This document shows, in pieces, positions 1 through 63,876 of a DNA stretch of 64,000 bases. Numbering within the stretch: position 1 is the first letter of the stretch; each line of letters begins with the position of its first letter. Origin of the DNA: Eledone cirrhosa. Taxonomy: Eukaryota. Position numbers and translations under genes: made by a program. The DNA lies in the NCBI GenBank assembly GCA_964016885.1, contig OZ024750.1:13020001-13084000 (forward strand), written 5' to 3'. A model generated the notes under the pieces. That model was not told the DNA's origin. It ran no database searches and saw only the letters and a list, made by a program, of their open reading frames with translations.

Positions 1-125
1 TTTCTTTTTCAAGTGGTAAGCTGTGACCTTGGAACCACCATCAATCTTTGGTGCTTTCCATTGTAGAGTAACAAAGTCAGCACCAATTTTGTCATAAGTA
101 AACTTGATTGGTGGACCAGGAGGTT
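1..125 (-). CDS. Fn3 exon, partial (runs off window): [37 protein letters not shown]
   Basis: Acceptor AG at 126-127; phase 1; Fn3 motif; not in ORF track. Confidence 0.85.
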
Positions 126-21100: not shown

Positions 21101-21389
21101 ATTGACAATATCTTTTCCATGGCCTTTCTTTCGTTGAATGTCATCTTTAACCGGATAGTCATTATTTTGCTGCCTATTATGGCCAACATCGTGACCATCT
21201 TCTGAAAAAGTAACAATTGATATTTGTGGCAAAATGATTTATATTTCTTTGTAAATTGTTGGACTTAGAAGACAAAACTGGTACGAAATAAACAAACAAA
21301 AAAACATTAAATGATCAACAAAACTTAGGATCAACATAATAAACTTGAACACCTAAAAGAAAACCAAACAAAACTATAAACTTTAACTA

Positions 21390-21420
<31 letters not shown>

Positions 21421-30372: not shown

Positions 30373-30414
<42 letters not shown>

Positions 30415-38569: not shown

Positions 38570-38604
<35 letters not shown>

Positions 38605-44600: not shown

Positions 44601-47600
44601 GGTGGAGGTCAACCAAGGAGGGGATCCTCCAACAGGAGTGAGACGGCCCCTGGATTGGATTGGAATGCACAACTATTGAAATCTGTAAAGAAAATTGTTT
44701 AGCCAAATATAAATGAGTATATTGAATGAATTGTAAACTAACCATAGCATATAACTGATGCTTCACACTCAGCTGTTCCAGCAGAGTTTGTAGCAACACA
44801 TTTATATGTTCCAGCTTCTGCCTTGGTAAACTTAGGCATTTTCAGGGTGCATACAGTATCATCCATGGTAATCTTAGATTTTGAAGTGTTCTTGATTTCT
44901 TTGTTATCTCTGGAAAATAAATAAACAAACAAACTTCAGTAATTATTCATTCCTAATCTATTATGAAAATATATGTTTCTTAAACAGTTTAGAAAGTGTT
45001 AGATGTAAAAAATGATATTTATGAAGAAACGATATGCGGATTGTAAGTGTGAGAGAAAGGCAGAGCTTGGATGATTTGAGGGAGAAACTAGGTTTAAGAG
45101 GAATCCTTGGTTGTGTGTAGGAGAGAAGACTGCATTGGTATAGACATGTGATGCACTAGGGTGTCAATTTAATCAACTTTCCCCTCCCCTCAAAATATTT
45201 GACCTTGTACCAAAATGAGATGGCATTATTAAACATACATATATATTTGAATTCAACCATTGCCAATATGTAAAAGAGATTATGATGATGAGGAAGTTTC
45301 TTTTATATATAAATAGACAAAACAAAACATATATATACACACCTAAACCATTTAACTGTTGGTTTGGGTTCACCAGTTACTTTGCATTGAAGCTCTAATG
45401 GTTCATCAGTCTTCAGTGTCTGGAAAATTTAGATTTGAAAATATTTATATTTATATATATAAGCAAATGAATAAGTGTAGGAGTCGCAAGTCGTTATAAC
45501 AAAATATTTATATAATTCTTACATGATGTTTCACCCACATTAATTAATAATAATAATAATTGTTTCTACTTTAGGCACAAGGCCATCAATTAGCCAGTAC
45601 ATTACTGGTACTTTATTTTATCGACCCCAGAGAAAGTATATTTGTTAGTACAAATGTCTATCAAAGTCAATATAACCAGTCAAGCTGGGTGAAAATATAT
45701 ATATATATACATACAGCTTTATAGTTATCATTTTAACAGAAAACTGAATAACATGTATTAGCAAAATTATAATTTGATATTTGAGAAAAAATCTGTGACT
45801 TACTACTGGTTGCAGAGATTCTTCAAATTCTGGTTTTTGCTCTGGAAAAGTTAAAATTGCATATACATTAGTTAGGTACATTTATATCATTTTGTATGCT
45901 TTAAATACGTGAAATTTTAGCTCATTAGTTATAATTTCAAATTTGAAATAATACTGTTTGTTTACAGTATATACTGACCATAAAGAGTGACTGTAGCTTC
46001 ACATTCTGCTGTACCAGCTGAATTAGTAGCAACACATTTGTATATACCAGCTTCTGGTTTTGTAAATGAAGGTATTTTCAAGGAACATACATTTTCCTGG
46101 CGAGTTATTGCAGATTTGGAAGTGTTTTTAATCTCTTTACCATTTCTGTTATATAAATAAAAAATACACAATAAGAACTGAAAATAAAGTACATTAACAT
46201 TTAAAAAATTAATAATATACAACCCTACTATCTATTTAAATCTACATAATTATATAGTGATGAATGTTAGCTTATGATAGATATGAGAGACTTTTTTTCT
46301 AGATGAGAACATCATACTTACTTAAACCATTTAATTGTTGGTTTAGGTTCTCCAATGACTTCACACTTCATTTCTAAAACTTCATTTGTCTTCACAGTCT
46401 AAAATGTGAAATATAAACATTTCATCATAAATCAAATTAATAACAAATTTATTTTATTACAAATAACTAAAATATATGAAAGGTCTTCTACTTACAGTTG
46501 GTTGGAGGGTTTCAACAAATTCTGGACTCTTTTCTAAAAAATCAAATAACATTATCATATTAAGTTTGAAAAAAATACAAATATATATTATAAATTCAAT
46601 TAAAATTAAAATTTATAAATAAAATATTAGAATATTATTTTCTCTACTGAAATATCATTTTACAAATAAAAATTAAAATGTATATGGATAATATACTTTA
46701 CTTTTATATATAAAACAGTTATGATGAAGTATAGAATATATACAGAATAGTAATAGTTAAACATATTAAAGTTCTTTTTACAGAAAAACACTTTACATAC
46801 CGAATAAGGTAACTGAAGCTTCACAACTTGTCATTCCAGCAGGGTTAGTAGCAACACATTTATAAAGGCCTGCATCTGCTTTTGTAAATTTGGCCATCTT
46901 CAATGTGCAAACATCTCCCTCTTGTAATAGTTTATATTTAATAGTTGGTTTAATTTCAACATTGTCTCTGTAATGAAACACAAATAGATATTTAGTTTAA
47001 TCCTTGATCATGCATTTTGTAAAAGGAAATTATATAAAATCTCTATATAAATTATATTTCATAAAAATATAAATATATTCTGTAATCAATTTCATTCATA
47101 ATTGTGGATTATATATGAGATGCCTAAAGCCTTAAATAGAGAAGGTATTATCTGGCTGACTCATATGTGCTGGGTGGCCTGGATCTCTAGAACGGCACCT
47201 AAGCAGTAGAAATCAAGAATGATAATCCCAATTTTCAAAAAGAGAGATAAGATTGATTGTTCCAATTATAGAAGGATCTCCTTGTAAGCTGGTAAACTCT
47301 ATGTTAAGTGTCTGGCAAATAAGTGTTAGGATATTTAATGATATTTTTAAAAATAAACAAATATATTATATATGTACAAGATATACGCAGCAATAACATT
47401 ACCCAGAATTTAAAAAATACATTATTTGTTACCAATTTCTCAGTGGAGAAAATGACAGGATATTTTCATTAAACCTTTTATATATCTTAATGTAATAGAA
47501 ATATCCTAATAACTAATGTGATCCACTTGATTATTTTAAGAAAAGAAAAACTTACTTGAACCATTTGATGGTTGGTTTAGGTTCACCAGTAACTTTGCAT

Positions 47601-50600
47601 ACCAATTGCAAACTATCCTCGTTTTTGATGCTCTGAAATTATAATTAGGAATCATTAAATAGTTATCTAATTATAAACAATAAAATCTCAAACTTTACTA
47701 AAACGGGGAAAAAACAAGAAACTTCACAATTGAACATCAAATACTTACAGTTGGTTCAAGAACTTCAACAAATTCTGGTTTCTGTTGTTCTGGTTTCTTG
47801 TCTTTTGGCTTTTCTTCCTCTGGTTTCTTTTCCTTTGGTTTTTCTTCCTCAAGTGTTATAGTAGCTTCACACTCGACAGAACCAGCAGAGTTTGTAGCAA
47901 TACATTTATAAACACCAACTTCATTCTTAGAGAATTTGCTGGTTTTTAATATACATATTGTGCCATCTTGAGTCATTTTGGTAAGTGATGTTGTTTTGAT
48001 TTCTTTGTTGTCTTTAAACCATTTAATGGTAGGCTTAGGTTCACCAGTTACTTTACACTTCAGTTCAAGTCCTTCATTCAATTTAATTGTGGCTGATGTG
48101 AAGATCTCTTCAAATTTAGGTTTATCTTCCTTTGGTTTTTCTTCATCAAGTGTTATAGTAGCTTCACATTCGACAGATCCTGTAGAGTTTGTAGCAATAC
48201 ATTTATAAATACCAACATCATTCTTTGTAAATTTGTTGGTTTTTAGAGTACAAATTGTGCCATCTTGAGTAATTTTGGTAAGATATGTTGACTTGATTTC
48301 TTTGTTGTCTTTAAACCATTTAATGGTAGGCTTAGGTTCACCAGTTACTTTACACTTCAGTTCAAGTCCTTCATTCAATTTAATCGTGGCTGCTGTGAAG
48401 ATTTCTTCAAACTCTGGCTTCTTTTCTTTTGGTTTTTCATCATCAAGTGATATAGTAGCTTCACATTCAACAGATCCAGTAGAATCTGTGACAATGCACT
48501 TATAAGTACCAATATCATTCTTGGTGAATTTATTGGTCTTTAGAGTGCATATTGTACCTTCTTGAGTAATTTTGGTAACATAGGTTGACTTGATTTCTTT
48601 TCCATTTCTGAAGAAGAAAATATTATTCTCTTGTATAACACCCTATATGGCAATATGGAAATTTAATGTCTAAATTTCTATAATAAATATCAATAAATAT
48701 GAGTATTTTATATATAAACGATATATGGTATTTTTATGAATAAACATTTTGAAAGCCTTCAGCTATGAATTTTGGAAATTGATAACGTAATGCCATCTAG
48801 CAGATTCCAGTAAATGATAGTAAATAGATTCTAGAAACTGAAGAGCATAATATTTATTAATGTTGATATAAAAAGTGGTGTGCTCTTGCATGGAGATGCT
48901 ATAAAATAGAGTGTAAAGCTTTAAAAACAGAAAAAGAAGTTGCGAGGAATCAAACCCTGTATCTCTTAGATATTGGCTTGGTGTTTTGAACCATTAAGCC
49001 AAGGGTCCATGACAACTCTTTACTGTCTTAAATTAGGTAGTTAAATCACAGCTTTTAACTCTAAACAAACATGTATGTAGTTGATCTCATGGACTTTTAC
49101 TAAGTGCTGAGGGGATAAAGTTAATATAAAGAGTTGTGTACTCATGTGCAGATATATCTTTATTATTGATACATTAACATTAATATAATTTCAAATCAAA
49201 ATGGATATCAACATTTTTCTTGAATTTTTAAATGTGGAAAAGATATCTTAATAAGATACTTACTTGAACCATTTGACAGTTGACTTTGGTTCACCTGTGA
49301 ATTTGCATTTCAATTCCATGCCCTCGCCAATTTTGAAAGACTAAACATAAAAAAAACATATATATATATATATATATATAATAAATATAATCACCACAAA
49401 AAAAAACATACAATACTTAAGGAATTTTAAAATGCTTTCAATCATACTTACAGCTGAGTTAAATACCTCTTCAAATGTTGGTTTCTTCTTAATTTCTGTA
49501 AATGTGTAAAGTGTATAAGTGTGAGAAAGCAATTGAAGAGTTGAGATTGAAATCAAAATCTTATTACACATCATAAAACAGAGCAAAATAAAAGTTATTA
49601 CTTTTAAATTTAAAATAATAATTGTTACAATATTTCGCACAAGGCCAACAATCTTGGGGGAGGGGAAAGTCAATTTAATCGACCCCAGTGCATTACTGGT
49701 GCTTTATTTTATCGACCCAAAGCTAACCTCGACAGGATTTGAATGCAGAACATAATAAAGGGACGTAACTATATGCTGCAAAGCATATTGCTCAATGCTC
49801 TACCGATTCTGCCAATTCACTGCTCTTTGTAAAATAATAATGAAATATATTAAATTAAAAGGATGCCTTTAGAAATGAAACAGAAGTAAAAGCTACTGTT
49901 GCACACTATAGACTCATTTAAAATGTTTCAAACAAAGTTGATTACATACCTGTAACAGTAACTTTACAAGAAGTTGAAGAAGTACCAACACTGTTTGTTG
50001 CTTTACATGTATATTCAGCAGTGTCTTCTTTTGTAACTTTACGGACTATCATTTTGTGAGATGTTTCAGAACTTTCAATTATGAAATGTTCAGATGATTT
50101 AATTTGTACACCATTTTTGTACCTATAAAAAGAGTTAATTAAATGATTCACTTTAGTGTAGGTTACCAAACATATTGTGAACAAATAAAGAATGATTAAC
50201 CCTTTAGCATTTAAGCCAGCCATATCCAGCCAGAATTCTCTCACCTCTTTCTGTTTAAACCAGCTGTAACCAGCCCCTCATACTGATGTTAAGGTATTTT
50301 TCTCAAAATAAATAACATCAAACTTTCATAGATTCGATATTATATGAGATAATTATGTAAAATAAAAGCCTTTACCACAAAAATACAATAGTAGATATAT
50401 TGAGTAATATAAAGGCTAAAGGGTTAAAGAATAAAAACAAAAATATAATTCTAAAAGTTTAATAGGAAAAGAACAAACCATGTAATTTCAGGACTTGGTG
50501 CTCCCTCAGTGATGACAGTAAATTCAACATCGGTTCCTTCATTTGGTTTTTGATCATCCAATTTCTTGGTGAACGAAGGAGCGACTGTATATTCCACGCT

Positions 50601-52156: not shown

Positions 52157-55100
52157 GTAAGAAGAAGAAGAAAAAGAAGAAGAAAATAAGGAAAAGAAGA
52201 AAAAGAAGAAAAAGAAGAAAAAGAAGAAAAAGAAGAAAAAGAAGAAAAAGAAGAAAAAGAAGAAAAAGAAGAAAAATGAAGAAAAAGAAAAAGAAGAAAA
52301 AGAAGAAAAAGAAAAAGAAGAAAAAGAAGAAAAAGAAAAAGAAGAAAAAGAAAAAGAAGAAAAAGAAGAAAAGGAAAAAGAAGAAAAAGAAAAAGAAAAA
52401 GAAGAAAAGGAAAAAGAAGAAAAAGAAGAAAAAGAAAAGGAAGAAAAAGAAGAAAAAGAAGAAAAAGAAGAAAAAGAGAAAAAAGAGAAAAAGAAAAAGA
52501 AGAAAAAGAAAAAGAAGAAAAAGAAGTAGTAGTAGTAGTAATGTAAAGAGCTACAGCATTATCTTGAAAATGAAGTGATGATCAAAAATGTAATCAACTG
52601 CAAAAGATAGAAAGTCGTGAGCTTTATATTAGTAATATTAGAAAATATCTTCTCGTTCAAGTGAACAGAGTTTCAGCTTTGTTTAATATTGGATAAAGTG
52701 TTTTCCTAACAACATATGAACGACCTGTATAATGAGACTATAATTTGTCTTAGTATTAACCTCATCTTTTTAACAAATGAAACATCACTTTACAATATTT
52801 ACACCTCGTACACTACATTGTGATTGGTTTGACCATTTGATCAGCATTGGGATGTCTTATTCATGGATCTATAGATGAGCCATGACTGAATTAGAAACTC
52901 TATAGATGTTAATAGACAGTCTACAGATGTTGATAGACAGTCTACAGATGTAGACAGCAAGGAGATGTTGATAGACAGTCTATAGATATTGACAGCAAGG
53001 AGATGTTGATAGTCTATAGATATTGACAGCAAGGAGATGTTGATAGTCTATAGATGTTGACAGCAAGGAGATGTTGCTAGACACAGTCTACAGATGTTGA
53101 CAGTGTATAGATGTTGCTAGACACAGTCTACAGATGTTGACAGCGTGTAGATGTTGCTAGACACAGTCTACAGATGTTGACAGTGTGTAGATGTTGATAG
53201 ACACAGTCTACAGATGTTGACAGCGTGTAGATGTTGCTAGACACAGTCTACAGATGTTGACAGTGTGTAGATGTTGATAGACACAGTCTACAGATGTTGA
53301 CAGTGTATAGATGTTGATAGACACAGTCTACAGATGTTGACAGTGTGTAGATGTTGATAGACACAGTCTACAGATGTTGACAGTGTGTAAATGTTGATAG
53401 ATACAGTCTACAGATGTTGACAGTGTGTAGATGTTGCTAGACACAGTCTACAGATGTTGACAGCAAGGAGATGTTGCTAGACAGTGTGTAGATGTTGATA
53501 TAGTCTATAGACATTGACACAGTTTATAGATGTTGATAGACACATTCTATTTTAAAGCATTTAGTGAGGGAGGGCAGTGCACATAACCTTTTTCAGGGAC
53601 TTCTAAGTCTAATGGGAAGGAGGAAGATATCTTTAAATGGATGAACTGGCCTGAATATGTGTAACAGAATGGACTACACTAAAGGCACCCAAGAACCAAG
53701 TGATGGTGTTAAACCAGGCAATAAATTAAGCCTGCACCCCTGTCCAAGAAGGTCATAGCAGGATTTTAACAAATACAACAGGGCATCCAATCTAAAGATC
53801 TAATGAATTAAGCATAAACTAGTACTATATTTATCACCCCAGAAGGATGAAAGACACCTAAAAAATAATGGTTCCTTATCAGAATCTAGTCAAGGATGAT
53901 ATACACATCCAGGAATAAGACATCTAATGATCTGATGCCAAAGGTCAAATGAATCGAAACTTAGTGTAGGGATGTAAATATTGAAAAATAAAGCTTCAAT
54001 GTTAAAGATGCAGTTTATTGTTTCTAAAAATGATCTTATTCCCAATTTATCTCAAATTTATAGTAATCTATTAACTACGATAAAGTGTGGGGTTAAGTTT
54101 ATAGAAACGTGTATAAGTTTATTAAGAATAAGATTGACTCACAAATTAAAAAAAAAGTCTATATTAGAAAAAGATTTAATGGAAAGCTGACCCATTGTGA
54201 TTATGTAGTCATGATAATAGTAAACAAGGAAATGTCCGAACAGCAGATGAATTTACAACTCTGATACCCAAAATATAAGTTAAATTTAATCTTGATTTAG
54301 TTATACAGATATACATATAAAATTATTTTAGCAAGGGAGATAATCTATACAGGAATAAGCCTACAACGAATTTTAAATTTTAGTGAAGGTTTCATTTTCA
54401 TTCTGCTTTGCCTTTCATTTGATGAACATCTCAACAACCTAAATATAAAAGATATATATATATGTGTGTACAAGTATATGTATTTAAGATGTCAATGATA
54501 ACGAAGGCTTTTAAAACATGATACAAATATGCTAAAATAGAACAAATATTAATTATAACAATTGTAATAATAAATATTATTATCATTAATATAGATAACA
54601 GATTTACCTCAGGCAAAGTAAACGTGTCTTCAACTGTCACATCTTCTTTCTTTATATCTGAGCTATCAATACCAAATGAAACTGATAATTCTACATCTTT
54701 TTCCCTATCATCTGGCAGAGATAGAGATAAATCTGCACTAACATCTTCAGTTTTTGGTTCACCAAATACAAAGTCTGCTTCCACATCTTCAACTTCAGTT
54801 TTCTTTGGTTTCATCTCGAAGACAAAATCAGTTGAAACATCCTCGACCTCCTTAGCTTGTTTACTTTCTTCAGGTATGACAAAAGCAGCATCAACAGTAT
54901 CAGGAACCTTTTCTTCTTCTATGTGAATGGTTGCTTCAGTATCACGTGGCTTTTCTTCTTCTATGACAATAGTTGCTTCAATATCACGTGGTTTTTCTTC
55001 TTCTATGACAATAGTTGCTTCAGTATCACGTGGTTTTTCTTCTTCTATGACAATAGTTGCTTCAATATCACGTGGTTTTTCTTCTTCTATGACAATAGTT

Positions 55101-58100
55101 GCTTCAGTATCACGTGGTTTTTCTTCTTCTATGACAATAGTTGCTTCAGTATCACGTGGTTTTTCTTCTTCTATGACAATAGTTGCTTCAATATCACGTG
55201 GTTTTTCTTCTTCTATGACAATAGTTGCTTCAGTATCACGTGGTTTTTCTTCTTCTATGACAATAGTTGCTTCAGTATCAAGGGGTTTCTCTTTAGTAGT
55301 ACTATCAAGTACTAAACTAAATTCAGCATCTTCAACTTGTTCAGTTGTGTCTTCAAGAGAGAAACTGATATCATGGGCTTCTGAGGTTGTTTTCTTTTCA
55401 TCCTCTATCTCGAAGCTAGCATCAACAGAGGTATCCTCTTCAGCAAGGCTAAATTCAGCTTCAACATCTTCAGGAGTTTGTTTTTTAGATATATCTGTTT
55501 TGTCCTCTAATATTTCTACTGTAGTCATTTCTGCTACTTGTGTTTTGTATTTATCAGTAACTGATTCAGCAGCAGTCATTGTATCCTTCTGACTCTTACT
55601 GATTTCTGAAACTATATCTTGAGTGTCACTGCCAGACATGGTATCTGTTTGAATAACAGTTATATCAGATTCGGAAATATTAAGAGGCAGTTTTTGTTTA
55701 TCATCCATAACAGTTACTTTTTCAAATGAAATATCAGAAATATCAGACAAACCATTCTCTGATACTTGTTCTTGTACAAATCCAACCATAGATTTGGGGA
55801 TATCAGTAAATGTTGCTTCACTTTTCTCTGGTTTCTTCTCAGAATCAACAATGCTGACTTTCTCAACACTGACATCTGAAATATCGGAGACAATATTGGC
55901 TGTGATATCTTCATGAGCGACTCCAACCATAGATTTGGGGATATCAGTAAATGTAGCTTCACTTTTCTCTGGTTTCTTCTCAGAATCAACAATGCTGACT
56001 TTCTCAACACTGACATCAGAAATATCGGAGACGATATTGGCTGTGATATCTTCATGAGCGACTCCAACCATAGATTTGGGGACATCAGTAAATGTTGCTT
56101 CAGTTTTCTCTGGTTTCTTTTCAGAATCAACAACGTGGATTGTTTCAAAGCTGATATCTGAAATATCGGACACGATATTGGCTGTGATATCTTCATGAGC
56201 GACTCCAACCATATATTTGGGGATATCAGTAAATGTTGCTTCACTTTTCTCTGGTTTCTTTTCAGAATCAACAATGCTGACTTTCTCAACACTGACATCT
56301 GTAATATCAGAGACGATATTGGCTGTGATATCTTCATGAGCGACTCCAACCATATATTTGGGGATATCAGTAAATGTTGCTTCAGTTTTCTCTGGTTTCT
56401 TTTCAGAATCAACAACGTGGATTGTTTCAAAGCTGATATCTGAAATATCGGACACGATATTGGCTGTGATATCTTCATGAGCGACTCCAACCATAGATTT
56501 GGGGATATCAGTAAATGTTGCTTCACTTTTCTCTGGTTTCTTTCCAGAATCAACAATGCTGACTTTCTCAACACTGACATCTGTAATATCAGAGACGATA
56601 TTGGCTGTGATATCTTCATGAGCGACTCCAACCATATATTTGGGGATATCAGTAAATGTAGCTTCACTTTTCTCTGGTTTCTTCTCAGAATCAACAACAC
56701 TGATGGTTTCAACACTGACATCAGAAATATTAGCAAGACCATTTTCTGTTAAATGTTCTTGTACAAATCCAACCATTGATTTAGGGATATCAGTAAATGT
56801 AGCTTCAGTTTTCTCTGGTTTCTTTTCAGAGTCAACAATGTGGATTGTTTCAAAACCGACATCAGTAATATCGGACACGATATTTTCTGTGATATCTTCA
56901 TGAGCGACTCCAACCATAGATTTGGGGATATCAGTAAATGTAGCTTCACTTTTCTCTGGTTTCTTCTCAGAATCAACAATGCTGACTTTCTCAACACTGA
57001 CATCTGAGATATCGGAGACAATATTGGCTGTGATATCTTCATGAGCGACTCCAACCATATATTTGGGGATATCAGTAAATGTAGCTTCACTTTTCTCTGG
57101 TTTCTTCTCAGAATCAACAACACTGATGGTTTCAACACTGACATCAGAAATATTAGCAAGACCATTTTCTGTTAAATGTTCTTGTACAAATCCAACCATT
57201 GATTTAGGGATATCAGTAAATGTTGCTTCAGTTTTCTCTGGTTTCTTTTCAGAGTCAACAACGTGGATTGTTTCAAAGCTGATATCTGTAATATCAGACA
57301 CGATATTGGCTGTGATATCTTCATGAGCGACTCCAACCATAGATTTGGGGATATCGGTAAATGTTGCTTCACTTTTTTCTGGTTTCTTCTCAGAATCAAC
57401 AATGCTGACTTTCTCAACACTGACATCTGTAATATCAGAGACGATATTGGCTGTGATATCTTCATGAGCGACTCCAACCATATATTTGGGGATATCAGTA
57501 AATGTAGCTTCACTTTTCTCTGGTTTCTTCTCAGAATCAACAACACTGATGGTTTCAACACTGACATCAGAAATATTAGCAAGACCATTTTCTGTTAAAT
57601 GTTCTTGTACAAATCCAACCATAGATTTGGGGATATCAGTAAATGTAGCTTCAGTTTTCTCTGGTTTCTTTTCAGAATCAACAATGTGGATTTTTTCAAA
57701 ACTGACATCAGAAATATCAGAGACGATATTTTCTGTGATATCTTCATGAGCCACTCCAACCATATATTTGGGGATATCAGTAAATGTAGCTTCACTTTTC
57801 TCTGGTTTCTTCTCAGAATCAACAACACTGATGGTTTCTACATTGATATCAGAAATATTAGCAAGACCATTTTCTGTTAAATGTTCTTGTACAAATCCAA
57901 CCATTGATTTAGGGATATCGGTAAATATTGCTTCAGTTTTCTCTGGTTTCTTTTCAGAGTCAACAATGCTGATGGTTTCTACATTGACATCAGAAATATC
58001 TGTTGTAATATTTTCTGTTAATTGATAAGTACTTGTATCAACTTTGGTTGGGAGGGTTTCAGATGTACTTTCTTTCTTCTCATCCATAGAAACGGTCATG

Positions 58101-60117
58101 GATACGACTTCTTTTGTCATTTCAGGAGATATTTCTATGATCTCTTCTTCTTTCTGAGGCACCTCAGTTTCCGGCTTTAATAAATGTGATCCGACATTAA
58201 AGTTCAAGTGTTTAATTGGTTGTTATTTTAAAATGCAAATCATCGTGTGGGCAGCTGGTCATGCATGCATATAGAAGCAGCAATTGTCACAGACACATTA
58301 CATGTGTACAGATAGGATGAACACACATATATAAGACAAAACAACATACTGCTACATAGACGCTAATAATAAATATAAACTATAAATATCAACATAATAA
58401 GCAGCATGCTGTACAATGAAACATAGTTTTGACAATGTTTATGTTAAAACTATATAATATTTGCAAATATCATATAAATGTTATATGTTCATTTTGTTTA
58501 AAATATAATTTAATATTTGATATAGAACTGACTAAAACCACTCCTGGTTAAATACAAAACTGATTGATTTAATGTTTATATTTACCTAAAAACATTCCAT
58601 TATAATTTCCTGTAAGAATGTTAAGTTGTCTTCCAAACACCAACTTAATAATTAGAATATTAGTTATTTTCTAAATTCATAAAAATGTTGATTATTTGAA
58701 AATCATAAGTATTGTATTTCATTAGAAATATAGTAACAAATAGCTAGATAAACTCTCCAGATTTTCTGATAAAAACTATTTCAAGTTATAATGCTAAATA
58801 AAATACTTACGAATAGTCTAATTAAAGAAAGCTATAATTACTTTAGTCCTGGAGAGGAGATGGGCTTCACCATATTTTAAAAGATGCCTTAGATATGCCA
58901 TATGGCAATACAGTACCCTGACGAGTCCCTTAGGAGTTACAGATCTAAACAAACATAATTAATTTACAAAGCTAGAATATCAGGATTATATTATATATTT
59001 AATAGATTTAATTATTTTCAACAAAATATTTCATAGTATTAAAATATATAAAGGTAAGTATCGCACTATATAACTTACAAACTTGAAATAAATCATAGTT
59101 TTAACATAATTACAAATAATTTATGCATTTGACATTACGTAAAAAAAATTGTCAAAACTCTAGAAAACGATTTACAAACAACAAAAGCTGTGAAACAAAT
59201 CAACATATTTTAAAAGTGCCAAAAAAGCAGGAAGGAAAAAGGTATCTATAACTAGAGCTAATAAGCCAAACAATACGCGTAAACATAAAATCAGTAAAAG
59301 CTGTGCAAATCTGTTTAAAATAACTAAAAATATGAGCCATCCATTTAATATTTTCTCTGACATTCAACATTAGAAGTTTATATTTATGTATATATATATA
59401 TATATATTTATGTGTGTGTATATATATATATATATATATCGCAAGTAAGTATGTTTTGAAACAGTGAGCAGGTTTGAAATTAGAAAATAGAATAGCTTTC
59501 ACCGTATTTTTGACTAAAGGAATTTTAGCCTCAGATAAATGGAAAAAGATGAGTAGTACGTCAATACTCATCTTTTTCCATTTATCTGAGGGTTCTAAAC
59601 CCCATTATCAGGCTAAAATTCCTTTAGTCAAAAATACGGTGAAAGCTATTCTATTTTATATATATATATATTTATGTGTGTGTATATATATATATATAAT
59701 ATAATATTTATATATATCATATAATATATTAATATAATATAGTATATAAATATAAAATATGTTAATATAATGTGTGTGCGTGTGTGTGTGTGTTTGTGTA
59801 CAAAGTGAGAGAGGGGCATATATAAGTATATACAATATAGAGATATATGTATATATTTTTTTAAATCCTCAATGTGGGTATTTTAAGATGTGACATGCCA
59901 CAACTATCTCAGTAACTATGAGAGAATGCAAAGTATTAGTATTTCAGGATCTTTATCCATCATTAGTGATGTTACTCAATTAATAATGAGATAAAGAAAG
60001 CTAATAGCATATATATACTTAGGTATACAGCTAGGCACCAGTGATGTCACAACTCAGTTCTATAGCTGATTAAACTGAAGCAATATGAAATAAAGTGTGT
60101 TTCTCAAGGACAAACAC

Positions 60118-60964: not shown

Positions 60965-63539
60965 ATTAATAGATAGATACATAGATAGACAAATATATAC
61001 GTATGTGTATATATATATAGGGGATATATATATATGTTATTGATAGATAGATAGACAAATATATATGTATGTGCATATGTATATATATATACATATATAT
61101 AGGGGATATATATATATTATTGATAGATAGATAGACAAATATATACGTATGTGCATATGTATATATATATATATACATATATATAGGGGATATATATATA
61201 TATATATAGGGGATATATATATATTATTGATAGATAGATAGACAAATATATACGTATGTGCATATGTATATATATATGTATATATATATGTATATATATG
61301 TATATATATATAATCACTTGATTAAATATTAAAACTAAAGAGTAGAAGGACATCATTTAAGGAAGCTGATAATTTTCCCTACAAATTATTCCCTATAAAT
61401 CCGCAGTAAATATATATTACAATGCTTAAACAGAGAAAAACGTCATTGACAGTCAATATATTTACATACAAGATGGCACCAAATTATTTTTAATTTCATG
61501 CTCAACAATACAATAGCCAAAAAGCAGGTTGGACAATACAACAAATATACATGAAAATACAACAAATTGACTTGTACTGGAATAGACATTTAAAGCAATT
61601 ATTATAAACAGTTACATATAAAATAACAATTACATGTGCAAATAAAAAATAACTGTGGGACAAAAAATTCATTAAACACACAATACAAAGCAACACTGAA
61701 AATAAAACTACAGCTACAAACATATAAAGCCATTCAAGCTCTGCCCATTAAATATAACACAAATAATATACAATTTTAACATGTGGAGAGTAATGTATTT
61801 TACTTGAAAATATACAATAAAGCTTTTATTTATAATTATCAAATTAACTGTCTCCACGAATTAATTTTATAAATAATATAATTTGTAAAATTTCAATTAA
61901 AATATAAAAAACCATTTCATAGGTTACAGTTTTATACAACTTATACTTTAGTTATTTATATAAAGTGTTGGCCAATGGCAACTTATGCTTCCAAGCTGTG
62001 AAAAATGAACCCACAGATTCTATATATTTGCAGGTATCTTATACAGACATTGCCTTAGAGCCATGATAAGAATATCTTAACATAACCTCATTAAAAATAA
62101 TGAGGCTATAAAAAGGCCAATTTCTGAGATACCATCATCATAAGATAGTAGATGATGCTAGACCAGATGTAATTTGACTATACATAAAATGCCAAATAAG
62201 TTTTAAATATATTCCATAAATTAAACAGAATTTCCTATTTATTTATATCCATGTACAAAATGGTCCATTTATCTTAAAACATGAACATTTGAAATTAATT
62301 TATATTTTTCTTAATAACCTAACTTCAATAGTTTAATAGTTTCTGTAAATTGAAAATATAGACACTAGAAAATTCAATCTTACCTCAAGTACGTGTACAG
62401 TTTCGAAAGAATCAACAACTGTCTTTGTTTGTTTAATTGTCTCAACTTCTTTCCTTGCCTTCAAGTAAATAAAAAAGAAATATTTTATGAAGTAAGATAA
62501 ATATTCAAATTTCTCAAAACTGTTTTTTACATAAATTACAATTAATGAAAAAAATAATCTTCTTATAAAGTAGCTCAATCAAAAAACAAATAATTATCTC
62601 AATATTAATTTTTTATAAGTGTTAAGATACATAATAAAATATATCTATACTATCTATTTTCATTTAATATGAAAAAGGATTCAATTCTCTTTAAGCAAAA
62701 ATAGGAAGAAATTCTGCTTTACCTTGAAACCTCGGTAGGCAGCTTGTATTGTGACAGCAGCCTGTTCTGCAATGTCCTCTTCTTCAGATATATCAGCAAA
62801 TTCTAAAATTAAAAAATTATGAACAAGATGCAATGAAATTTTCAAACAATTATTTTCTCAAAATAAATTATTCCTATTTCATTTGAAATAAAATCTCTCT
62901 ATATTAAAGAATATATTAAGTAGAAATAGCTATTTTTTGTTTATCATAAATACATATTAATTCTAAGATGTAAAATGAACCCACAGATTCTATATAATTG
63001 CAGGTATCTTATACAGACATTGCCTTAGAGCCATGATTAGACCATTATTAGACTATATTATGTAGTCAATGATACAGCGATACTTCTATTTCTATTCTAA
63101 AACTTTGCCTGCCTCATTCCAAATATATTTCCTTTACAACCTTTAATGTTTACAAGATTTTATTAGGCTCCTATATTTAAGAGTGCCCAGCAAAGTACAA
63201 TGTGTAATGCAAGCAATAATAAGCAATGTAGACTAAATTACCTAACACATCAAGGACACATGATGATACAATTTCTCCATAGTCATTTGCAGCTTTAACG
63301 GTGTATGTTCCTGCATCTTCTGGAAATACTTCAGGAATCATTAAAGTAGATTCATTAGCACCAGGAATTACATGATACATTTCTCCATCTTCGATGAGCA
63401 TGTTGTTATAATACCATGTAATATTAGGAATTGGTTGACCTTTGTATTTACATACAAACGATATAGATCCACCTTCTTCTACTGTTTGATCAATTAGAGA
63501 AATTTCAAAAATAGGAGCCATATCACCAGGTTGTTTGAT
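1..63539 (-). CDS. Giant titin/twitchin/obscurin-like Ig-Fn3 muscle protein gene (internal portion, 64 exons, both ends outside window)
   Basis: Minus-strand exons bounded by GT-AG with compatible phases translate to I-set Ig (W...DxGxYxCxAxNxxG) and titin-type Fn3 (WxxPxxDGGSxIxxYxxE...YxFRVxAxNxxG) domains. Confidence 0.95.
286..591 (-). CDS. Fn3 exon (306 nt, phase 1-1)
   Basis: ORF 269..622 trimmed to AG/GTAAG; VPSAPIGPL...WKKPKDDGG...[12 protein letters not shown]. Confidence 0.9.
1039..1338 (-). CDS. Fn3 exon (300 nt)
   Basis: ORF 1028..1363; ttttccag acceptor, gtaagt donor. Confidence 0.9.
1456..1755 (-). CDS. Fn3 exon (300 nt)
   Basis: [32 protein letters not shown]; AG/GTAAGT. Confidence 0.9.
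2140..2445 (-). CDS. Fn3 exon (306 nt)
   Basis: ORF 2117..2482 trimmed to splice sites. Confidence 0.9.
4146..4349. mobile_element. MITE with ~25-bp terminal inverted repeats (Tc1/mariner-like)
   Basis: ttatatctgtataaatacagagtgt at left matches reverse complement of acattctgtattgatacagatataa at right (2 mismatches). Confidence 0.55.
4584..4889 (-). CDS. Fn3 exon (306 nt): [50 protein letters not shown]
   Basis: Translated by hand; AG/GTAATT; missed by ORF track. Confidence 0.9.
5046..5333 (-). CDS. Ig exon (288 nt), Fn3-adjacent type
   Basis: ORF 4981..5343; [13 protein letters not shown]...[11 protein letters not shown]. Confidence 0.9.
5754..5926 (-). CDS. Ig C-half exon (173 nt, phase 2-1)
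   Basis: [46 protein letters not shown]. Confidence 0.88.
6275..6386 (-). CDS. Ig N-half exon (112 nt, phase 1-2)
   Basis: [37 protein letters not shown]; Trp codon split TG|G. Confidence 0.88.
6723..7028 (-). CDS. Fn3 exon (306 nt)
   Basis: ORF 6694..7038 trimmed to splice sites. Confidence 0.9.
7352..7654 (-). CDS. Fn3 exon (303 nt)
   Basis: ORF 7335..7775 trimmed; ttttccag/gtaagt. Confidence 0.9.
7734..7920 (-). mobile_element. tRNA-derived SINE, family A, full length
   Basis: Pol III A/B-box-like TGGCAGTATCG / GAGTTCAAATCCC on minus strand; 17-bp TSD ttacatataaaaataat (7717-7733, 7921-7937); about 12 copies in window. Confidence 0.9.
8413..8715 (-). CDS. Fn3 exon (303 nt)
   Basis: [32 protein letters not shown]. 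Confidence 0.9.
9363..9650 (-). CDS. Ig exon (288 nt)
   Basis: [11 protein letters not shown]...[19 protein letters not shown]...[11 protein letters not shown]. Confidence 0.9.
9820..9992 (-). CDS. Ig C-half exon (173 nt)
   Basis: [46 protein letters not shown]. Confidence 0.88.
10117..10231 (-). CDS. Ig N-half exon (115 nt)
   Basis: [39 protein letters not shown]. Confidence 0.88.
10543..10826. mobile_element. Tc1/mariner-pogo-type MITE interrupted by a 5'-truncated family A SINE (10624-10731)
   Basis: TA-ccgtatttcccggc ... gccaggaaacatgg-TA imperfect TIRs; SINE flanked by TSD atttgaaaacaaataat. Confidence 0.7.
11006..11311 (-). CDS. Fn3 exon (306 nt)
   Basis: ORF 10986..11279 extended to acceptor. 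Confidence 0.9.
11757..12059 (-). CDS. Fn3 exon (303 nt)
   Basis: [40 protein letters not shown]...[12 protein letters not shown]. Confidence 0.9.
12222..12406 (+). mobile_element. Family A SINE, full length
   Basis: A/B boxes on plus strand; 13-bp TSD attattatcatca. Confidence 0.9.
13220..13790. mobile_element. Degenerate family B SINE fragments in both orientations
   Basis: gttaggaagggcat (plus) and atgctcttcctaataccaaccaca (minus) match family B copies. Confidence 0.5.
14208..14504 (-). CDS. Fn3 exon (297 nt), first Fn3 of the gene within the window
   Basis: [32 protein letters not shown]. Confidence 0.9.
14736..14915. repeat. Imperfect (GT/GA)n microsatellite
   Basis: gtgtgagtgtatgaga units. 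Confidence 0.85.
15380..15515 (-). mobile_element. Family A SINE, 5'-truncated
   Basis: Matches 7734-7920. Confidence 0.85.
15957..16241 (-). CDS. Ig exon (285 nt), MyBP-C C5 / twitchin core type
   Basis: [38 protein letters not shown]...[11 protein letters not shown]. Confidence 0.9.
16357..16498 (-). mobile_element. Family A SINE, long subfamily with extra ~30-bp G-rich segment
   Basis: Extra ttgggagaggggaaaatcgattaaact also present at 29550 and 49650. Confidence 0.8.
16604..16873 (-). CDS. Short Ig exon (270 nt)
   Basis: [37 protein letters not shown]...DVAEYSMTV; missed by ORF track. Confidence 0.88.
17108..17245. repeat. Degenerate ~24-bp minisatellite
   Basis: tatagttattgccaatat units repeated about 5-6 times. 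Confidence 0.7.
17515..17781 (-). CDS. Short Ig exon (267 nt)
   Basis: [31 protein letters not shown]. Confidence 0.9.
18586..18981 (+). mobile_element. Head-to-tail tandem pair of family A SINEs with three copies of the TSD
   Basis: gttattatttcctg at 18586, 18777 and 18968; period 191 bp. Confidence 0.9.
19504..21201 (-). CDS. Large non-globular G/D/R/S-rich repeat exon (~566 aa), probable cassette or alternative terminal exon; donor uncertain
   Basis: 591-codon ORF in very AT-rich DNA; strong phase-1 acceptor ttactttttcag at 21202; weak phase-1 donor gtatta at 19503 keeps frame; 57-bp tandem repeats. Confidence 0.7.
22570..23042 (+). mobile_element. Internally deleted mariner element
   Basis: TIRs tatgttcaataagtaatgagaaattttcaggagag / ctctcctgatattttctcattatttattgaacata; interior relic YAIKVCV...EAYEM...RWFKRFSKG resembles mariner transposase HTH. 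Confidence 0.75.
23293..23559 (-). CDS. Short Ig exon (267 nt)
   Basis: [31 protein letters not shown]. Confidence 0.9.
24237..24503 (-). CDS. Short Ig exon (267 nt)
   Basis: [27 protein letters not shown]. Confidence 0.9.
24934..25200 (-). CDS. Short Ig exon (267 nt)
   Basis: [27 protein letters not shown]. Confidence 0.9.
25555..25824 (-). CDS. Short Ig exon (270 nt)
   Basis: [27 protein letters not shown]. Confidence 0.9.
26032..26088 (-). mobile_element. Heavily 5'-truncated family B SINE tail with TSD ctatctca
   Basis: (cat)n-tttacgtctgctttttccctgcttgcaagggtggga near-identical to 38288 and 42710 copies. Confidence 0.8.
27006..27284 (-). CDS. Divergent short Ig exon (279 nt)
   Basis: [40 protein letters not shown]...[10 protein letters not shown]; phase 1-1. 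Confidence 0.82.
27520..27710 (-). mobile_element. Family B SINE 3' part, diverged
   Basis: catcatttaacatcc...gatgcccttcttaacaccaaccaca. Confidence 0.7.
28200..28440 (-). mobile_element. Probable Helitron Pif1-helicase C-terminal relic
   Basis: Minus-strand fragments [10 protein letters not shown] and [12 protein letters not shown] resemble Helitron motifs FAMTINKSQG and GLDLxxxxFSHG; stops and frameshifts present. Confidence 0.5.
29141..29520. repeat. 17-bp minisatellite (taatgactatatgtata), about 22 copies
   Basis: Direct tandem units abutting a SINE tail. Confidence 0.9.
29521..29729 (-). mobile_element. Family A SINE, long subfamily
   Basis: Matches 16357 and 49621 copies. Confidence 0.85.
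29981..30163 (-). mobile_element. Family A SINE, full length
   Basis: TSD taatttaat; A/B boxes. Confidence 0.9.
30743..31012 (-). CDS. Short Ig exon (270 nt)
   Basis: [40 protein letters not shown]. Confidence 0.9.
31924..32190 (-). CDS. Short Ig exon (267 nt)
   Basis: [35 protein letters not shown]. Confidence 0.9.
32410..32668 (-). CDS. Short Ig exon (259 nt, phase 0-1)
   Basis: [25 protein letters not shown]. Confidence 0.88.
33124..33321 (-). CDS. Charged K/E/D linker exon (198 nt, phase 0-0)
   Basis: ORF 33067..33321 trimmed at gtgaga donor. Confidence 0.82.
33692..33857 (-). CDS. Charged E-rich linker exon (166 nt, phase 2-0)
   Basis: [55 protein letters not shown]; needed for phase continuity. 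Confidence 0.82.
34054..34245 (-). mobile_element. Family B-related SINE 3' part
   Basis: (cat)n tail, ggatgcccttcctaacaccaaccaca. Confidence 0.7.
34490..34775 (-). CDS. Ig exon with WSKGKW motif followed by DWKAALKHR (MyBP-C C1 / IGFN1-like)
   Basis: [34 protein letters not shown]...[14 protein letters not shown]; 286 nt, phase 1-2. Confidence 0.88.
34917..35143 (-). CDS. Ig C-half plus start of next Ig (227 nt)
   Basis: ORF 34876..35151 trimmed. Confidence 0.85.
35310..35421 (-). CDS. Ig N-half exon (112 nt)
   Basis: [37 protein letters not shown]. Confidence 0.88.
35865..36037 (-). CDS. Ig C-half exon (173 nt)
   Basis: [26 protein letters not shown]...[14 protein letters not shown]. 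Confidence 0.88.
36576..36690 (-). CDS. Ig N-half exon (115 nt)
   Basis: [39 protein letters not shown]. Confidence 0.88.
37338..37637 (-). CDS. Ig exon (300 nt)
   Basis: [40 protein letters not shown]; missed by ORF track. Confidence 0.88.
37962..38128 (-). CDS. Ig repeat 11, part c (167 nt)
   Basis: [24 protein letters not shown]...[14 protein letters not shown]. Confidence 0.88.
38288..38570 (-). mobile_element. Family B SINE (tRNA head truncated, CORE-like middle, (ATG)n tail)
   Basis: Near-identical to 42710-43027. Confidence 0.85.
38620..38970 (-). mobile_element. RTE-clade LINE relic, AP-endonuclease C-terminus
   Basis: [36 protein letters not shown] matches the RTE/Rex3-type SxIDF...VKRGAxLSTDHHLV motif. 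Confidence 0.75.
39046..39122 (-). CDS. Ig repeat 11, part b (77 nt)
   Basis: [26 protein letters not shown]. Confidence 0.88.
39390..39466 (-). CDS. Linker plus Ig repeat 11, part a (77 nt)
   Basis: [26 protein letters not shown]; phase 1-0. Confidence 0.82.
39675..40492 (-). CDS. Fused exon (818 nt): Ig repeat 8 part c, EEKKP linker, intronless Ig repeats 9 and 10
   Basis: ORF 39667..40200 extends in frame to acceptor at 40493. Confidence 0.9.
40790..40990 (+). mobile_element. Family B-related SINE 3' part, plus orientation
   Basis: aaaagcacccagc...gttggcattacgaagggcatccag...catgctaacatggaaaa. Confidence 0.65.
41005..41081 (-). CDS. Ig repeat 8, part b (77 nt)
   Basis: [26 protein letters not shown]. 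Confidence 0.88.
41519..41556 (-). CDS. Ig repeat 8, part a (38 nt)
   Basis: [13 protein letters not shown]; phase 1-0. Confidence 0.85.
42090..42330 (+). mobile_element. RTE/Rex3-type LINE 3' end relic
   Basis: [22 protein letters not shown]...[14 protein letters not shown] resembles the RTE ORF C-terminus. Confidence 0.65.
42399..42565 (-). CDS. Ig repeat 7, part c (167 nt)
   Basis: [24 protein letters not shown]...[16 protein letters not shown]. Confidence 0.88.
42710..43027 (-). mobile_element. Family B SINE, near full length (tRNA head, CORE-like domain, RTE-like (ATG)n tail)
   Basis: Minus strand tggttagagcattggcc...gagttcaattct head, ccttgagcaagacacttta CORE-like, ends gacgtaaaatgatgatg. 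Confidence 0.85.
43111..43313. mobile_element. piggyBac-type MITE
   Basis: TTAA ends with cctttag / aaaggg TIRs; second copy at 50196-50427. Confidence 0.75.
43557..43633 (-). CDS. Ig repeat 7, part b (77 nt)
   Basis: [26 protein letters not shown]. Confidence 0.88.
43910..43947 (-). CDS. Ig repeat 7, part a (38 nt)
   Basis: [13 protein letters not shown]. Confidence 0.85.
44743..44909 (-). CDS. Ig repeat 6, part c (167 nt)
   Basis: ORF 44738..44932 trimmed. Confidence 0.88.
45025..45156 (+). mobile_element. RTE LINE relic (post-RT region)
   Basis: [25 protein letters not shown] resembles the RTE motif RLRWFGHV. Confidence 0.6.
45343..45419 (-). CDS. Ig repeat 6, part b (77 nt)
   Basis: [26 protein letters not shown]. 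Confidence 0.88.
45559..45630 (-). mobile_element. Family A SINE 3' fragment
   Basis: ttgtttctactttaggcacaaggcc...ttatcgacccc. Confidence 0.75.
45804..45841 (-). CDS. Ig repeat 6, part a (38 nt)
   Basis: [13 protein letters not shown]. Confidence 0.85.
45979..46145 (-). CDS. Ig repeat 5, part c (167 nt)
   Basis: ORF 45962..46222 trimmed. Confidence 0.88.
46322..46398 (-). CDS. Ig repeat 5, part b (77 nt)
   Basis: [26 protein letters not shown]. Confidence 0.88.
46496..46533 (-). CDS. Ig repeat 5, part a (38 nt)
   Basis: [13 protein letters not shown]. Confidence 0.85.
46801..46967 (-). CDS. Ig repeat 4, part c (167 nt)
   Basis: ORF 46793..46981 trimmed. Confidence 0.88.
47150..47325 (+). 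mobile_element. RTE LINE relic, start of RT domain
   Basis: [43 protein letters not shown] matches the P.FKKGD...CSNYRGISL motif. Confidence 0.75.
47556..47632 (-). CDS. Ig repeat 4, part b (77 nt)
   Basis: [26 protein letters not shown]. Confidence 0.88.
47749..48607 (-). CDS. Fused exon (859 nt): Ig repeat 1 part c, intronless Ig repeats 2 and 3, KPE linker, Ig 4 part a
   Basis: ORF 47737..48378 extends in frame to acceptor at 48608; internal 297-bp period. Confidence 0.9.
49264..49340 (-). CDS. Ig repeat 1, part b (77 nt)
   Basis: [26 protein letters not shown]. Confidence 0.88.
49452..49495 (-). CDS. Ig repeat 1, part a (44 nt)
   Basis: [15 protein letters not shown]. Confidence 0.85.
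49623..49829 (-). mobile_element. Family A SINE, long subfamily
   Basis: TSD taaaataataat; small internal deletion. Confidence 0.82.
49950..50122 (-). CDS. Ig C-half exon (173 nt)
   Basis: [13 protein letters not shown]...[14 protein letters not shown]. Confidence 0.88.
50196..50427. mobile_element. piggyBac-type MITE
   Basis: TTAA-ccctttagc ... gctaaaggg-TTAA. Confidence 0.82.
50479..50621 (-). CDS. Ig N-half exon (143 nt, phase 0-2)
   Basis: [48 protein letters not shown]. Confidence 0.85.
51965..52152. repeat. (TA)n and (TG)n microsatellites
   Basis: Direct observation. Confidence 0.95.
52159..52525. repeat. ~370-bp polypurine (AAG/AAAAAG) tract
   Basis: Almost exclusively A/G on plus strand. 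Confidence 0.95.
52898..53545. repeat. Minisatellite, 40-bp unit built from ~19-21-bp subunits
   Basis: acacagtctacagatgttgacagtgtgtagatgttgatag with period 40 (53081, 53121, 53161...). Confidence 0.9.
54608..58174 (-). CDS. Giant acidic repeat exon (3,567 nt, 1,189 aa, phase 0-0); putative elastic spacer
   Basis: 1,258-codon ORF; donor GAG|gtaaat at 54607; most plausible in-frame acceptor ttattaaag at 58175; phases match flanking exons. Confidence 0.85.
54909..55290 (-). repeat. Coding 42-bp tandem repeat x9 ([14 protein letters not shown])
   Basis: Visible in DNA and protein. Confidence 0.92.
55715..58020 (-). repeat. Coding 141-bp (47-aa) tandem repeat x16 with higher-order structure
   Basis: [47 protein letters not shown]; 423- and 282-bp periodicities. 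Confidence 0.92.
59484..59657. repeat. Near-perfect nested inverted repeat (fold-back)
   Basis: 59484-59531 pairs with 59610-59657; 59529-59555 pairs with 59565-59591. Confidence 0.92.
60430..60555 (+). mobile_element. RTE LINE 3' end fragment embedded in (TA)/(CA) microsatellite
   Basis: [30 protein letters not shown] matches the RTE C-terminal GxRxRGRP...MxDRxxWR motif. Confidence 0.7.
60900..61312. repeat. Compound microsatellite array, about 4 units of ~75 bp (GATA/TA/GGGG)
   Basis: tattgatagatagatagacaaatatatacgtatgtgcatatg...tagggga repeated. Confidence 0.85.
62384..62458 (-). CDS. 75-nt exon, C-half of IQ motif ([25 protein letters not shown])
   Basis: AG/GTAAG; phase 0-0. Confidence 0.82.
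62723..62802 (-). CDS. 80-nt exon, N-half of IQ motif ([27 protein letters not shown])
   Basis: ttttag acceptor, gtaaag donor; phase 1-0 bridges flanking exons; not in ORF track. Confidence 0.85.
63242..63539 (-). CDS. Ig exon (298 nt), titin/kettin I-band type
   Basis: [36 protein letters not shown]...[19 protein letters not shown]. Confidence 0.9.
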
Positions 63540-63668
63540 CTGAAATAGAAAATAAAAATAATTCAACACCATTAATAATAAATATCATTAATTGAAAATA
63601 AATTATATACTTCCTTTTTGTATTTGTTTTACAAGATTTCGTCTCTGAAAACGTATGTTGAAAAAGAT

Positions 63669-63876
63669 ATTGTTATACTTTGGGAGGGTCATGCTGCCAA
63701 TAAAAATGCACGCACCTCTTGATGCTCACTTCAATTTATTATAAACTCCCAGTTGGTTAGTTTAATAACTAAACAACTATCAGGTTATTTAACTAACCAG
63801 CTGGGACATTATCATAAATTGATGTGAAAAACCAACAGGTCCATGTGTTTTTGGCAGCATGACAAAGTATAACAAA
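63669..63876. mobile_element. Palindromic MITE-like element
   Basis: ttgttatactttg..gtcatgctgccaa pairs with ttggcagcatgacaaagtataacaa; inner cccagttggttagtt pairs with aactaaccagctggga. Confidence 0.6.

What the first reader, a model, noticed from the sequence alone, without database searches (positions are those of the whole stretch)
54608..58174. 3.6-kb phase-symmetric exon encoding a novel 47-aa repeat with higher-order organisation
Seen: 16 copies of a 47-aa acidic, Ile/Val/Ser/Thr-rich unit in variant order A-B, (A-B-C)x3, then B/C-type dimers and a final A-like unit (423- and 282-bp periods), followed by nine 14-aa [14 protein letters not shown] repeats. It is not classical PEVK: proline is low and alternating hydrophobic residues suggest beta-strand propensity, so it could be a repetitive ligand-binding ruler or an unusual spring. 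Phase 0-0 means skipping removes 1,189 aa in frame, a switch between long and short isoforms right after the IQ motif.
Basis: partly seen in the sequence, partly recalled or inferred. Interest (0 to 1): 0.7.

Follow-up and report, generated by a model that had tools for sequence, protein, structure and literature searches.

The report
Orphan repeat spring in invertebrate titin
A giant titin-like muscle gene carries a 3.6-kb exon, apparently included in the one RNA data set examined, made of acidic 47- and 14-residue repeats with no relative found; it likely works as a lineage-specific floppy spring, and the proposed on/off splicing switch remains unshown.

Summary
The anatomy is confirmed: a stop-free minus-strand frame of 1,189 codons between AG and GT, 16 x 47-aa units in trimer-then-dimer order, 9 x 14-aa units, phase 0-0, just after a Pfam-positive IQ motif, in a gene with about 32 Ig and 12 Fn3 domains in the window. 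Units evolve under purifying selection (pN/pS 0.38). One public run is spliced, holds 63% of the exon's words, and its contig runs exactly 245 letters past the IQ donor, the first fork of the exon's repeat graph: inclusion is inferred; skipping was not seen. No homologue was found in the protein, Pfam, PDB or Atlas searches. Most likely an acidic, largely disordered spring or spacer like the giant PEVK-type exons of fly Sallimus and worm TTN-1, though the 47-mer array (38% PEVK, 4% proline) misses the PEVK cut-off. New here: the 14-mer resembles the last strand plus linker of neighbouring Ig domains and the core of the 47-mer. One of five AlphaFold2 hexamer models forms a beta-solenoid (pLDDT 65), a known bias for repeats, so folding stays open. 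New variant of a known kind.

The parts
54608..58174 (-). Giant exon, 3,567 nt, 1,189 aa, about 131 kDa, phase 0-0
   Evidence: 5' end supported indirectly by RNA contig length; 3' end by sequence only
58022..58174 (-). Unique acidic 51-aa leader of the exon
   Evidence: FoldIndex -0.20
55766..58021 (-). 16 x 47-aa (141-bp) array with 423-bp then 282-bp higher-order periods; net charge -4 to -6 per unit
55286..55765 (-). 160-aa acidic S/T-rich linker beginning with a decayed 17th unit
54908..55285 (-). 9 x 14-aa (42-bp) array, 49% P/E/V/K; resembles Ig last strand plus linker and the 47-mer core
54608..54907 (-). 100-aa acidic tail with spaced short hydrophobic motifs
   Evidence: likeness to the 14-mer not significant (111 of 1000 shuffles)
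62384..62458 (-). Second IQ exon, 75 nt; its phase-0 donor precedes the giant exon
62723..62802 (-). First IQ exon, 80 nt, PF00612
63242..63539 (-). Upstream I-set Ig exon
   Evidence: only named hit is an insect titin at 34% identity
49949..50621 (-). First downstream Ig domain, two exons (50621-50478, 50122-49949), phase-0 acceptor
   Evidence: boundaries from sequence only
37957..49340 (-). About 11 closely related Ig domains joined by K/P/E-rich linkers; three of their ends match the 14-mer
1..37662 (-). Rest of the gene in the window: Ig block, K/E-rich linker exons, Ig block, then Ig/Fn3 repeats running off the window

Best explanation
This is a coding exon of a giant titin/twitchin-family gene, likely spliced in after the IQ motif, whose acidic repeats likely form a mostly unfolded, extensible spring or spacer in the protein's I-band-like front part. 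Mechanism: net negative charge (about -0.14 per residue) would keep the 1,189 residues expanded; stretch would straighten them up to about 0.4 micrometre of contour and entropy would pull them back, lowering passive stiffness as PEVK exons do. The arrays grew by unequal in-frame duplication, first of single units, then of trimers and dimers; a 14-residue core shared with the end of the neighbouring Ig domains is the likely seed. Shown: frame, repeats, selection, gene context, IQ motif. Inferred: inclusion in mRNA, origin from Ig ends. Untested: disorder, elasticity, sarcomere position, skipping in other tissues, any link to calmodulin.
For: Open frame and pN/pS 0.38 among 47-mers. Ig, IQ, Ig and Fn3 context. 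Run X4 is spliced at both introns laid, has no intron cover apart from dispersed repeats, and its contig goes 245 letters past the IQ donor; 245 is the first out-fork of the exon's 31-mer graph counted from 58174; the five other in-frame AGs would put the end at 257 to 344, none a fork, and the two downstream exons have no repeated 31-mer. X4 holds 0.63 of the exon's words against 0.63-0.64 for DNA runs, more than the 0.41 that non-array parts supply. FoldIndex is negative for four of five segments and for the whole (-0.04). Nine of ten AlphaFold2 models are under pLDDT 35. [quoted passage not shown]
Against: The 47-mer array lies just on the folded side of FoldIndex (+0.04), has 4% proline and 38% PEVK, under the 40% cut, and is 32% V/I/T. 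One hexamer model folds regularly at pLDDT 65, pTM 0.61. Low pLDDT from shallow alignments is weak evidence for disorder. The letters beyond the donor were not printed, and the contig passes two in-forks (236, 238) before it ends. One RNA-like sample, tissue unknown. No orthologue to compare.
Confidence: 0.6

Rival explanations
1. Each 47-mer is one coil of a parallel beta-solenoid, perhaps folding only when calcium screens its acid ladders; 16 coils (about 8 nm) would store about 260 nm of chain and release it stepwise under force.
For: One of five hexamer models has the same three strands in every unit (pLDDT 65, pTM 0.61) and resembles parallel beta-helices (best Z 8.5, rmsd 4.1 over 163 residues). 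No indels in 16 units; FoldIndex +0.04; 21 of 27 variant residues keep their hydrophobic or polar class.
Against: Four other hexamer models score 24-32 and five trimer models 26-31. AlphaFold2 made beta-solenoids of 32 of 78 random repeats (PMC11795689). Z near 8 is common for such searches and no row stands out; Foldseek has nothing at E 0.001 or better. In-register stacking would pile -4 to -6 charges per coil. Class-keeping is not above chance (expected 0.66, p 0.14). Coordinates could not be inspected.
Confidence: 0.17
2. The arrays are strings of short binding motifs. The core that copies an Ig last strand plus linker would pair as an added strand with Ig domains opened by force, or dock on filament proteins, making a multivalent tether rather than a plain spring.
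For: The 14-mer matches three neighbouring Ig ends (best score 50, 0 of 1000 shuffles; 28 of 42 nt) and the 47-mer core (1 of 2000); that core is the most invariant part of the 47-mer.
Against: The likeness was seen by eye first and is equally explained by descent, or by convergence in E/K/P-rich sequence; the strand lacks the Ig cysteine; no partner is indicated; invariance may be recent homogenisation.
Confidence: 0.13
3. A tolerated minisatellite expansion within an exon: length and sequence matter little, and only the frame is kept.
For: No homologue found; recent, exact higher-order duplications; the window is rich in minisatellites.
Against: pN/pS 0.38 shows constraint on residues; a 131-kDa insert must alter mechanics if translated; searches lacked close relatives (control).
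Confidence: 0.07
4. Not an exon, or a mis-assembled array.
For: The acceptor has a poor pyrimidine tract (read by eye); no run was laid over the array itself; repeats in ttn-1 were collapsed in older assemblies.
Against: Open frame with selection; RNA-like run holds the words and its contig length fits inclusion; higher-order copies differ from each other by 0 to 13 nt in a consistent pattern. Copy number may still be off.
Confidence: 0.03

Closest known systems
Giant PEVK exons 31/32 of Drosophila sallimus (D-titin) (PMC12063666, PMC2185597; passages read)
   Same: Multi-kb, acidic, non-Ig exon between Ig blocks of an invertebrate titin; exon 32 codes 1,700 aa and sets protein and sarcomere length.
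   Different: PEVK content 52-58% there against 39% here; muscle-specific skipping is shown there, not here; here the gene goes on into A-band-type Ig/Fn3 repeats; no sequence likeness was found, and fly sequences were not compared directly.
Coding satellites of C. elegans ttn-1 (24, 42 and 117 bp units; PMC6210790, passages read)
   Same: Near-perfect lineage-specific tandem repeats of similar unit sizes (14 and 39 aa) inside a titin gene.
   Different: Arrays there reach 15-19 kb; no sequence match found; the paper describing their disorder (PMC2908218) was not held.
Molluscan twitchin (Mytilus: 24 Ig, 15 Fn3, small PEVK-like part, kinase; PMC12040844, passages read) and insect projectin (PMC3835035, passages read)
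   Same: Ig block, K/E-rich linker, Ig block, then Ig/Fn3 repeats, as in window 37662-1.
   Different: This gene has about 32 Ig domains in the window alone, an IQ motif and a 1,189-aa repeat exon in front; projectin's PEVK is 34-624 aa and mostly non-repetitive; kinase not in the window.
Obscurin (PMC2196875, passages read)
   Same: IQ motif in a non-modular stretch between Ig domains of a giant muscle protein.
   Different: Obscurin has only two Fn3 domains in the form described and SH3/DH/PH domains; this gene has at least 12 Fn3 in A-band-like repeats.
Parallel beta-helices (SufB/D-type, polygalacturonase, CAP C-terminal domain)
   Same: General arrangement of the one confident hexamer model (Z 7.7-8.5).
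   Different: 5-15% identity, no outstanding match, and the model may be an AlphaFold2 artefact.

Membership tests
Titin/twitchin family gene | Tandem I-set Ig domains | tested here: met
   best PDB hit of one Ig exon is titin
Titin/twitchin family gene | Ig/Fn3 repeats towards the C-terminus | tested here: met
   12 Fn3-like stretches with 4 interspersed Ig in window 14562-1, judged by motif and mutual BLAST; not scanned with Pfam
Titin/twitchin family gene | C-terminal kinase domain | not testable with these tools
   gene runs off the window; no genome held
Titin/twitchin family gene | Sarcomeric location in muscle | not testable with these tools
   tissue of the spliced run unknown
PEVK segment | More than 40% P+E+V+K in 250-aa windows (rule of PMC12063666): 47-mer array | tested here: not met
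   38%; sampled windows over the array 0.35-0.40
PEVK segment | More than 40% P+E+V+K in 250-aa windows: 14-mer end | tested here: met
   49% in the array; 102 of 940 windows pass, maximum 0.47
PEVK segment | PPAK-type repeat motif | tested here: not met
   no such Pfam family among hits for the exon or its parts
PEVK segment | Intrinsic disorder | tested here: inconclusive
   FoldIndex negative for four segments, +0.04 for the 47-mer array; 1 of 10 models folded
PEVK segment | Muscle-specific alternative splicing | tested here: inconclusive
   one spliced run, single path fitting inclusion; contigs drop rare forms
Titin Z-repeat (45 aa, recalled) | Match to the Pfam family | tested here: not met
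   not among Pfam hits
CRA repeat PF07046 | Score above the Pfam cut-off | tested here: met
   14-mer array 55.9 bits against 21.4
CRA repeat PF07046 | Common descent with the trypanosome antigen (origin recalled) | not tested
   judged a coincidence of 14-residue period and E/K/A/T make-up; the 14-mer has a local source in the Ig ends
Beta-solenoid repeat protein | Reproducible coil fold with a hydrophobic core | tested here: inconclusive
   1 of 5 hexamer, 0 of 5 trimer models; generic matches only
Obscurin/UNC-89 | IQ motif among Ig domains | tested here: met
Obscurin/UNC-89 | SH3, DH and PH domains | not tested
   none recognised by eye; no scan of all frames

The most novel reading that the evidence does not exclude
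The 47-mers are coils of a calcium- or force-switchable beta-solenoid born from a copied Ig strand: an 8-nm folded rod that unwinds coil by coil into 260 nm of chain, placed right behind a calmodulin site, giving a titin-family protein a new kind of stepwise shock absorber that is neither Ig nor PEVK.
Probability: 0.15. Interest if true: 0.75.

Novelty: new variant of a known kind. Interest (0 to 1): 0.38.

Why it matters
Giant acidic repeat exons are an established way for invertebrate titins to set stiffness and sarcomere length, so the general design is expected. What this adds is an unrecorded repeat just outside the PEVK definition, a traceable origin from the end of a neighbouring Ig domain, a readable duplication history, and a nearby IQ motif in an A-band-type titin. 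It gives a defined construct for asking how non-arthropod invertebrate muscle gets its passive elasticity. If the repeats fold, it would be a new elastic module and far more interesting.

Tried and rejected
Homologue searches: none at E 0.001 among 7,997 longer (residues 50-500) and 7,999 similar-length candidates. Profile search of 1.84 billion representatives gave 3 hits at E 1e-5 to 3e-4; all are fibre-like proteins with unrelated repeats from unnamed assemblies, rejected as chance. Control: the neighbouring Ig exon found only one protein at E 1e-8 or better among 28 candidates, at 34% identity, so these libraries appear to lack close relatives and the blanks are weak. PDB sequences: 2 hits, E 0.84 and 1.5. 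ESM Atlas: nothing usable, best 0.83. Pfam: CRA_rpt on the 14-mer and a marginal Pertactin hit on the linker (22.3 against 22 bits), both read as composition. No RNA holder listed (all four runs of unknown kind). Complex prediction of three trimer copies: no answer, controls not folded; no evidence either way. Foldseek: no match. Lag-2 hydropathy test negative. Class-keeping test not significant. Likeness of the 14-mer to linker, tail and leader motifs not significant (117, 111, 489 of 1000). No whole genome held. Acceptor strength was not compared across the gene's exons, so 'weak acceptor' is by eye. No run was laid on the array itself. Earlier findings: nothing by place or sequence. Literature searches listed no paper describing this repeat; I saw listings only for most, and subscription papers on mussel twitchin isoforms, crayfish I-connectin and TTN-1 are not held.

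Full report
Observation. The minus strand from 58174 to 54608 reads as 1,189 codons without a stop, while the other five frames hold 18 to 176 stops. AG precedes it and GT follows it. It holds 16 indel-free 47-aa units (58021-55766) and nine 14-aa units (55285-54908), with a 51-aa leader, a 160-aa linker and a 100-aa tail. Units 4, 7 and 10 are identical in DNA, and the trimer and dimer periods beat shuffled orders (p 0.004 and 0.0009 in 20,000 shuffles; ranges chosen after looking). Between units pN is 0.10 and pS 0.27, ratio 0.38, so the array has evolved as protein.

Gene context. By my count the window holds about 32 Ig and 12 Fn3 domains of one minus-strand gene: an Ig exon, an IQ motif (PF00612), the giant exon, one Ig, about 11 closely related Ig domains with K/P/E-rich linkers, four more Ig, K/E-rich linker exons, 11 Ig, then Ig/Fn3 repeats to the window's edge. 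The rear part has the layout of twitchin/projectin (PMC12040844 and PMC3835035, passages); the front part is an I-band-like extension. PMC12063666 notes such mixing in lophotrochozoan titins (section 6 and table S1 read). Which of the two invertebrate titin genes this is cannot be settled without the kinase (PMC12198301, passages, leaves the orthology open too).

Is it transcribed, and is it skipped? One search listed four holders of one study, none on record as RNA, each with 0.63-0.64 of 242 sampled words. Laid on 62100-63700, X1-X3 cover introns continuously and behave as DNA. X4 covers only the three exons and dispersed repeats and joins them at both introns with canonical ends, so it behaves as RNA. 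Its 1,446-letter contig has 746 letters upstream, from exons outside the window, and 245 letters after the donor at 62384. Those letters were not printed. Three things fit inclusion: 245 is the first out-fork of the exon's own 31-mer graph counted from 58174; the five other in-frame AGs give ends at 257 to 344, none a fork, and the two exons of the skip path hold no repeated 31-mer; and the piece stops at 62384, whereas the skip path begins with a G that the tool's greedy extension, seen at the joint before, would have taken. Also, non-array parts supply only 0.41 of the exon's distinct 31-mers, so X4 holds array words too. Against: the contig passes two in-forks (236, 238), it is one sample of unknown tissue, and the 3' junction was not examined. 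The contig does not break at the donor, so no second common isoform shows in this sample; contigs drop rare forms. The switch is therefore allowed by phase but not shown.

Relatives. None was found; the three profile hits are unrelated fibre-like proteins. The control with the adjacent Ig exon found only an insect titin at 34%, so the libraries seem to lack near relatives and the blanks say little about range. Within the window there is a relative: the 14-mer matches the last strand plus linker of three neighbouring Ig domains (best BLOSUM score 50; 0 of 1000 shuffles; 3,815 aa in 41 stretches scanned; 28 of 42 nt) and a 14-residue core of the 47-mer (1 of 2000). I saw this by eye before testing it. 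The simplest reading is that both arrays grew from a copied Ig end; convergence in E/K/P-rich sequence is not excluded.

Fold. The exon is 34% charged, net -0.14 per residue, 39% PEVK, 4.5% proline. By the 40% rule of PMC12063666, 102 of 940 windows qualify, at the 14-mer end; the 47-mer array (38%) does not. FoldIndex calls four segments disordered and the 47-mer array borderline, +0.04. Hydropathy alternation is not above chance. AlphaFold2 gave five trimer models at pLDDT 26-31 and hexamer models at 65, 32, 27, 24 and 24; the best has three strands per unit and resembles parallel beta-helices in general (Z up to 8.5; nothing by Foldseek). AlphaFold2 folds 32 of 78 random repeats this way, often with implausible charge stacks (PMC11795689, abstract and passages), and these units carry -4 to -6 each. 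The model is a lead, not support; I could not inspect its coordinates.

How it most likely works. As an expanded acidic chain between Ig blocks that lengthens and softens the elastic part of the protein: 1,189 residues at 0.35 nm give about 416 nm of contour. In Drosophila, deleting the 1,700-aa PEVK exon 32 shortens Sallimus by about 0.5 micrometre and sarcomeres by 1.5; D-titin's PEVK parts are 52-58% PEVK and lie in multi-kb exons (PMC2185597, passages); C. elegans ttn-1 has coding satellites of 24, 42 and 117 bp whose lengths older assemblies underestimated (PMC6210790, passages), a caution for the copy number here. Scallop muscles express several titin and twitchin isoforms (PMC5963113, passages), which keeps tissue-specific skipping plausible. 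The IQ motif has a precedent in obscurin, where it binds calmodulin independently of calcium (PMC2196875, passages); no link to this exon is shown. It works like a PEVK-type segment but the 47-mer array is not a member by composition or motif.

Novelty. Nine paper searches listed nothing on this repeat; most were seen as listings only, and key subscription papers are not held (the crayfish SEK repeats are recalled, not read; one search found no paper with that phrase). Of the supplements of PMC12063666 I read table S1 only. Earlier notes of this scan report other lineage-specific repeat modules in invertebrate titins; they are unchecked and suggest the pattern recurs. Verdict: a real, selected, probably expressed exon; a new variant of a known kind; interest 0.38, with a 15% chance of a folded or switchable module worth much more.

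Noticed in passing
window 19504-21201 (minus): A second large open frame (593 aa stop to stop, 19457-21238) between two Ig exons, G/D/R/S-rich, with 19-aa (57-bp) repeats, 18% PEVK and no Pfam hit; an AG before 21201 and a GT after 19504 would make a 1,698-nt phase 1-1 cassette.
   Followed up: partly
window 37957-49340 (minus): About 11 near-identical Ig domains with K/P/E linkers; most are split over small exons, but two long exons (about 48609-47750 and 40490-39675) each carry two and a half domains without introns, with 297- and 303-bp periods: intron loss or duplication inside an exon.
   Followed up: partly
window 33067-34776 (minus): An Ig exon followed by short K/E-rich exons, placed like the small PEVK-like linker of twitchin/projectin; no Pfam hit for the linker exons.
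   Followed up: partly
window 62000-62075 and 62975-63045: A roughly 70-bp stretch occurs twice in the introns around the IQ exons; DNA contigs break at it.
   Followed up: no
window 63604-63700: Edge of a very high-copy dispersed repeat; summed contig depth near one million in DNA runs and present in the RNA-like run.
   Followed up: no
window 52159-53483: Intron after the giant exon holds a 370-bp purine run and a 40-bp minisatellite of 14 copies.
   Followed up: no
window 54608-55765 (minus): Linker and tail carry short hydrophobic motifs every 13 to 18 residues among acidic residues, like decayed 14-mers, but the likeness is not significant.
   Followed up: yes
window 62314: One-base difference in DNA runs X1 and X3 but not X2 of the same sample, possibly a heterozygous site.
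   Followed up: no
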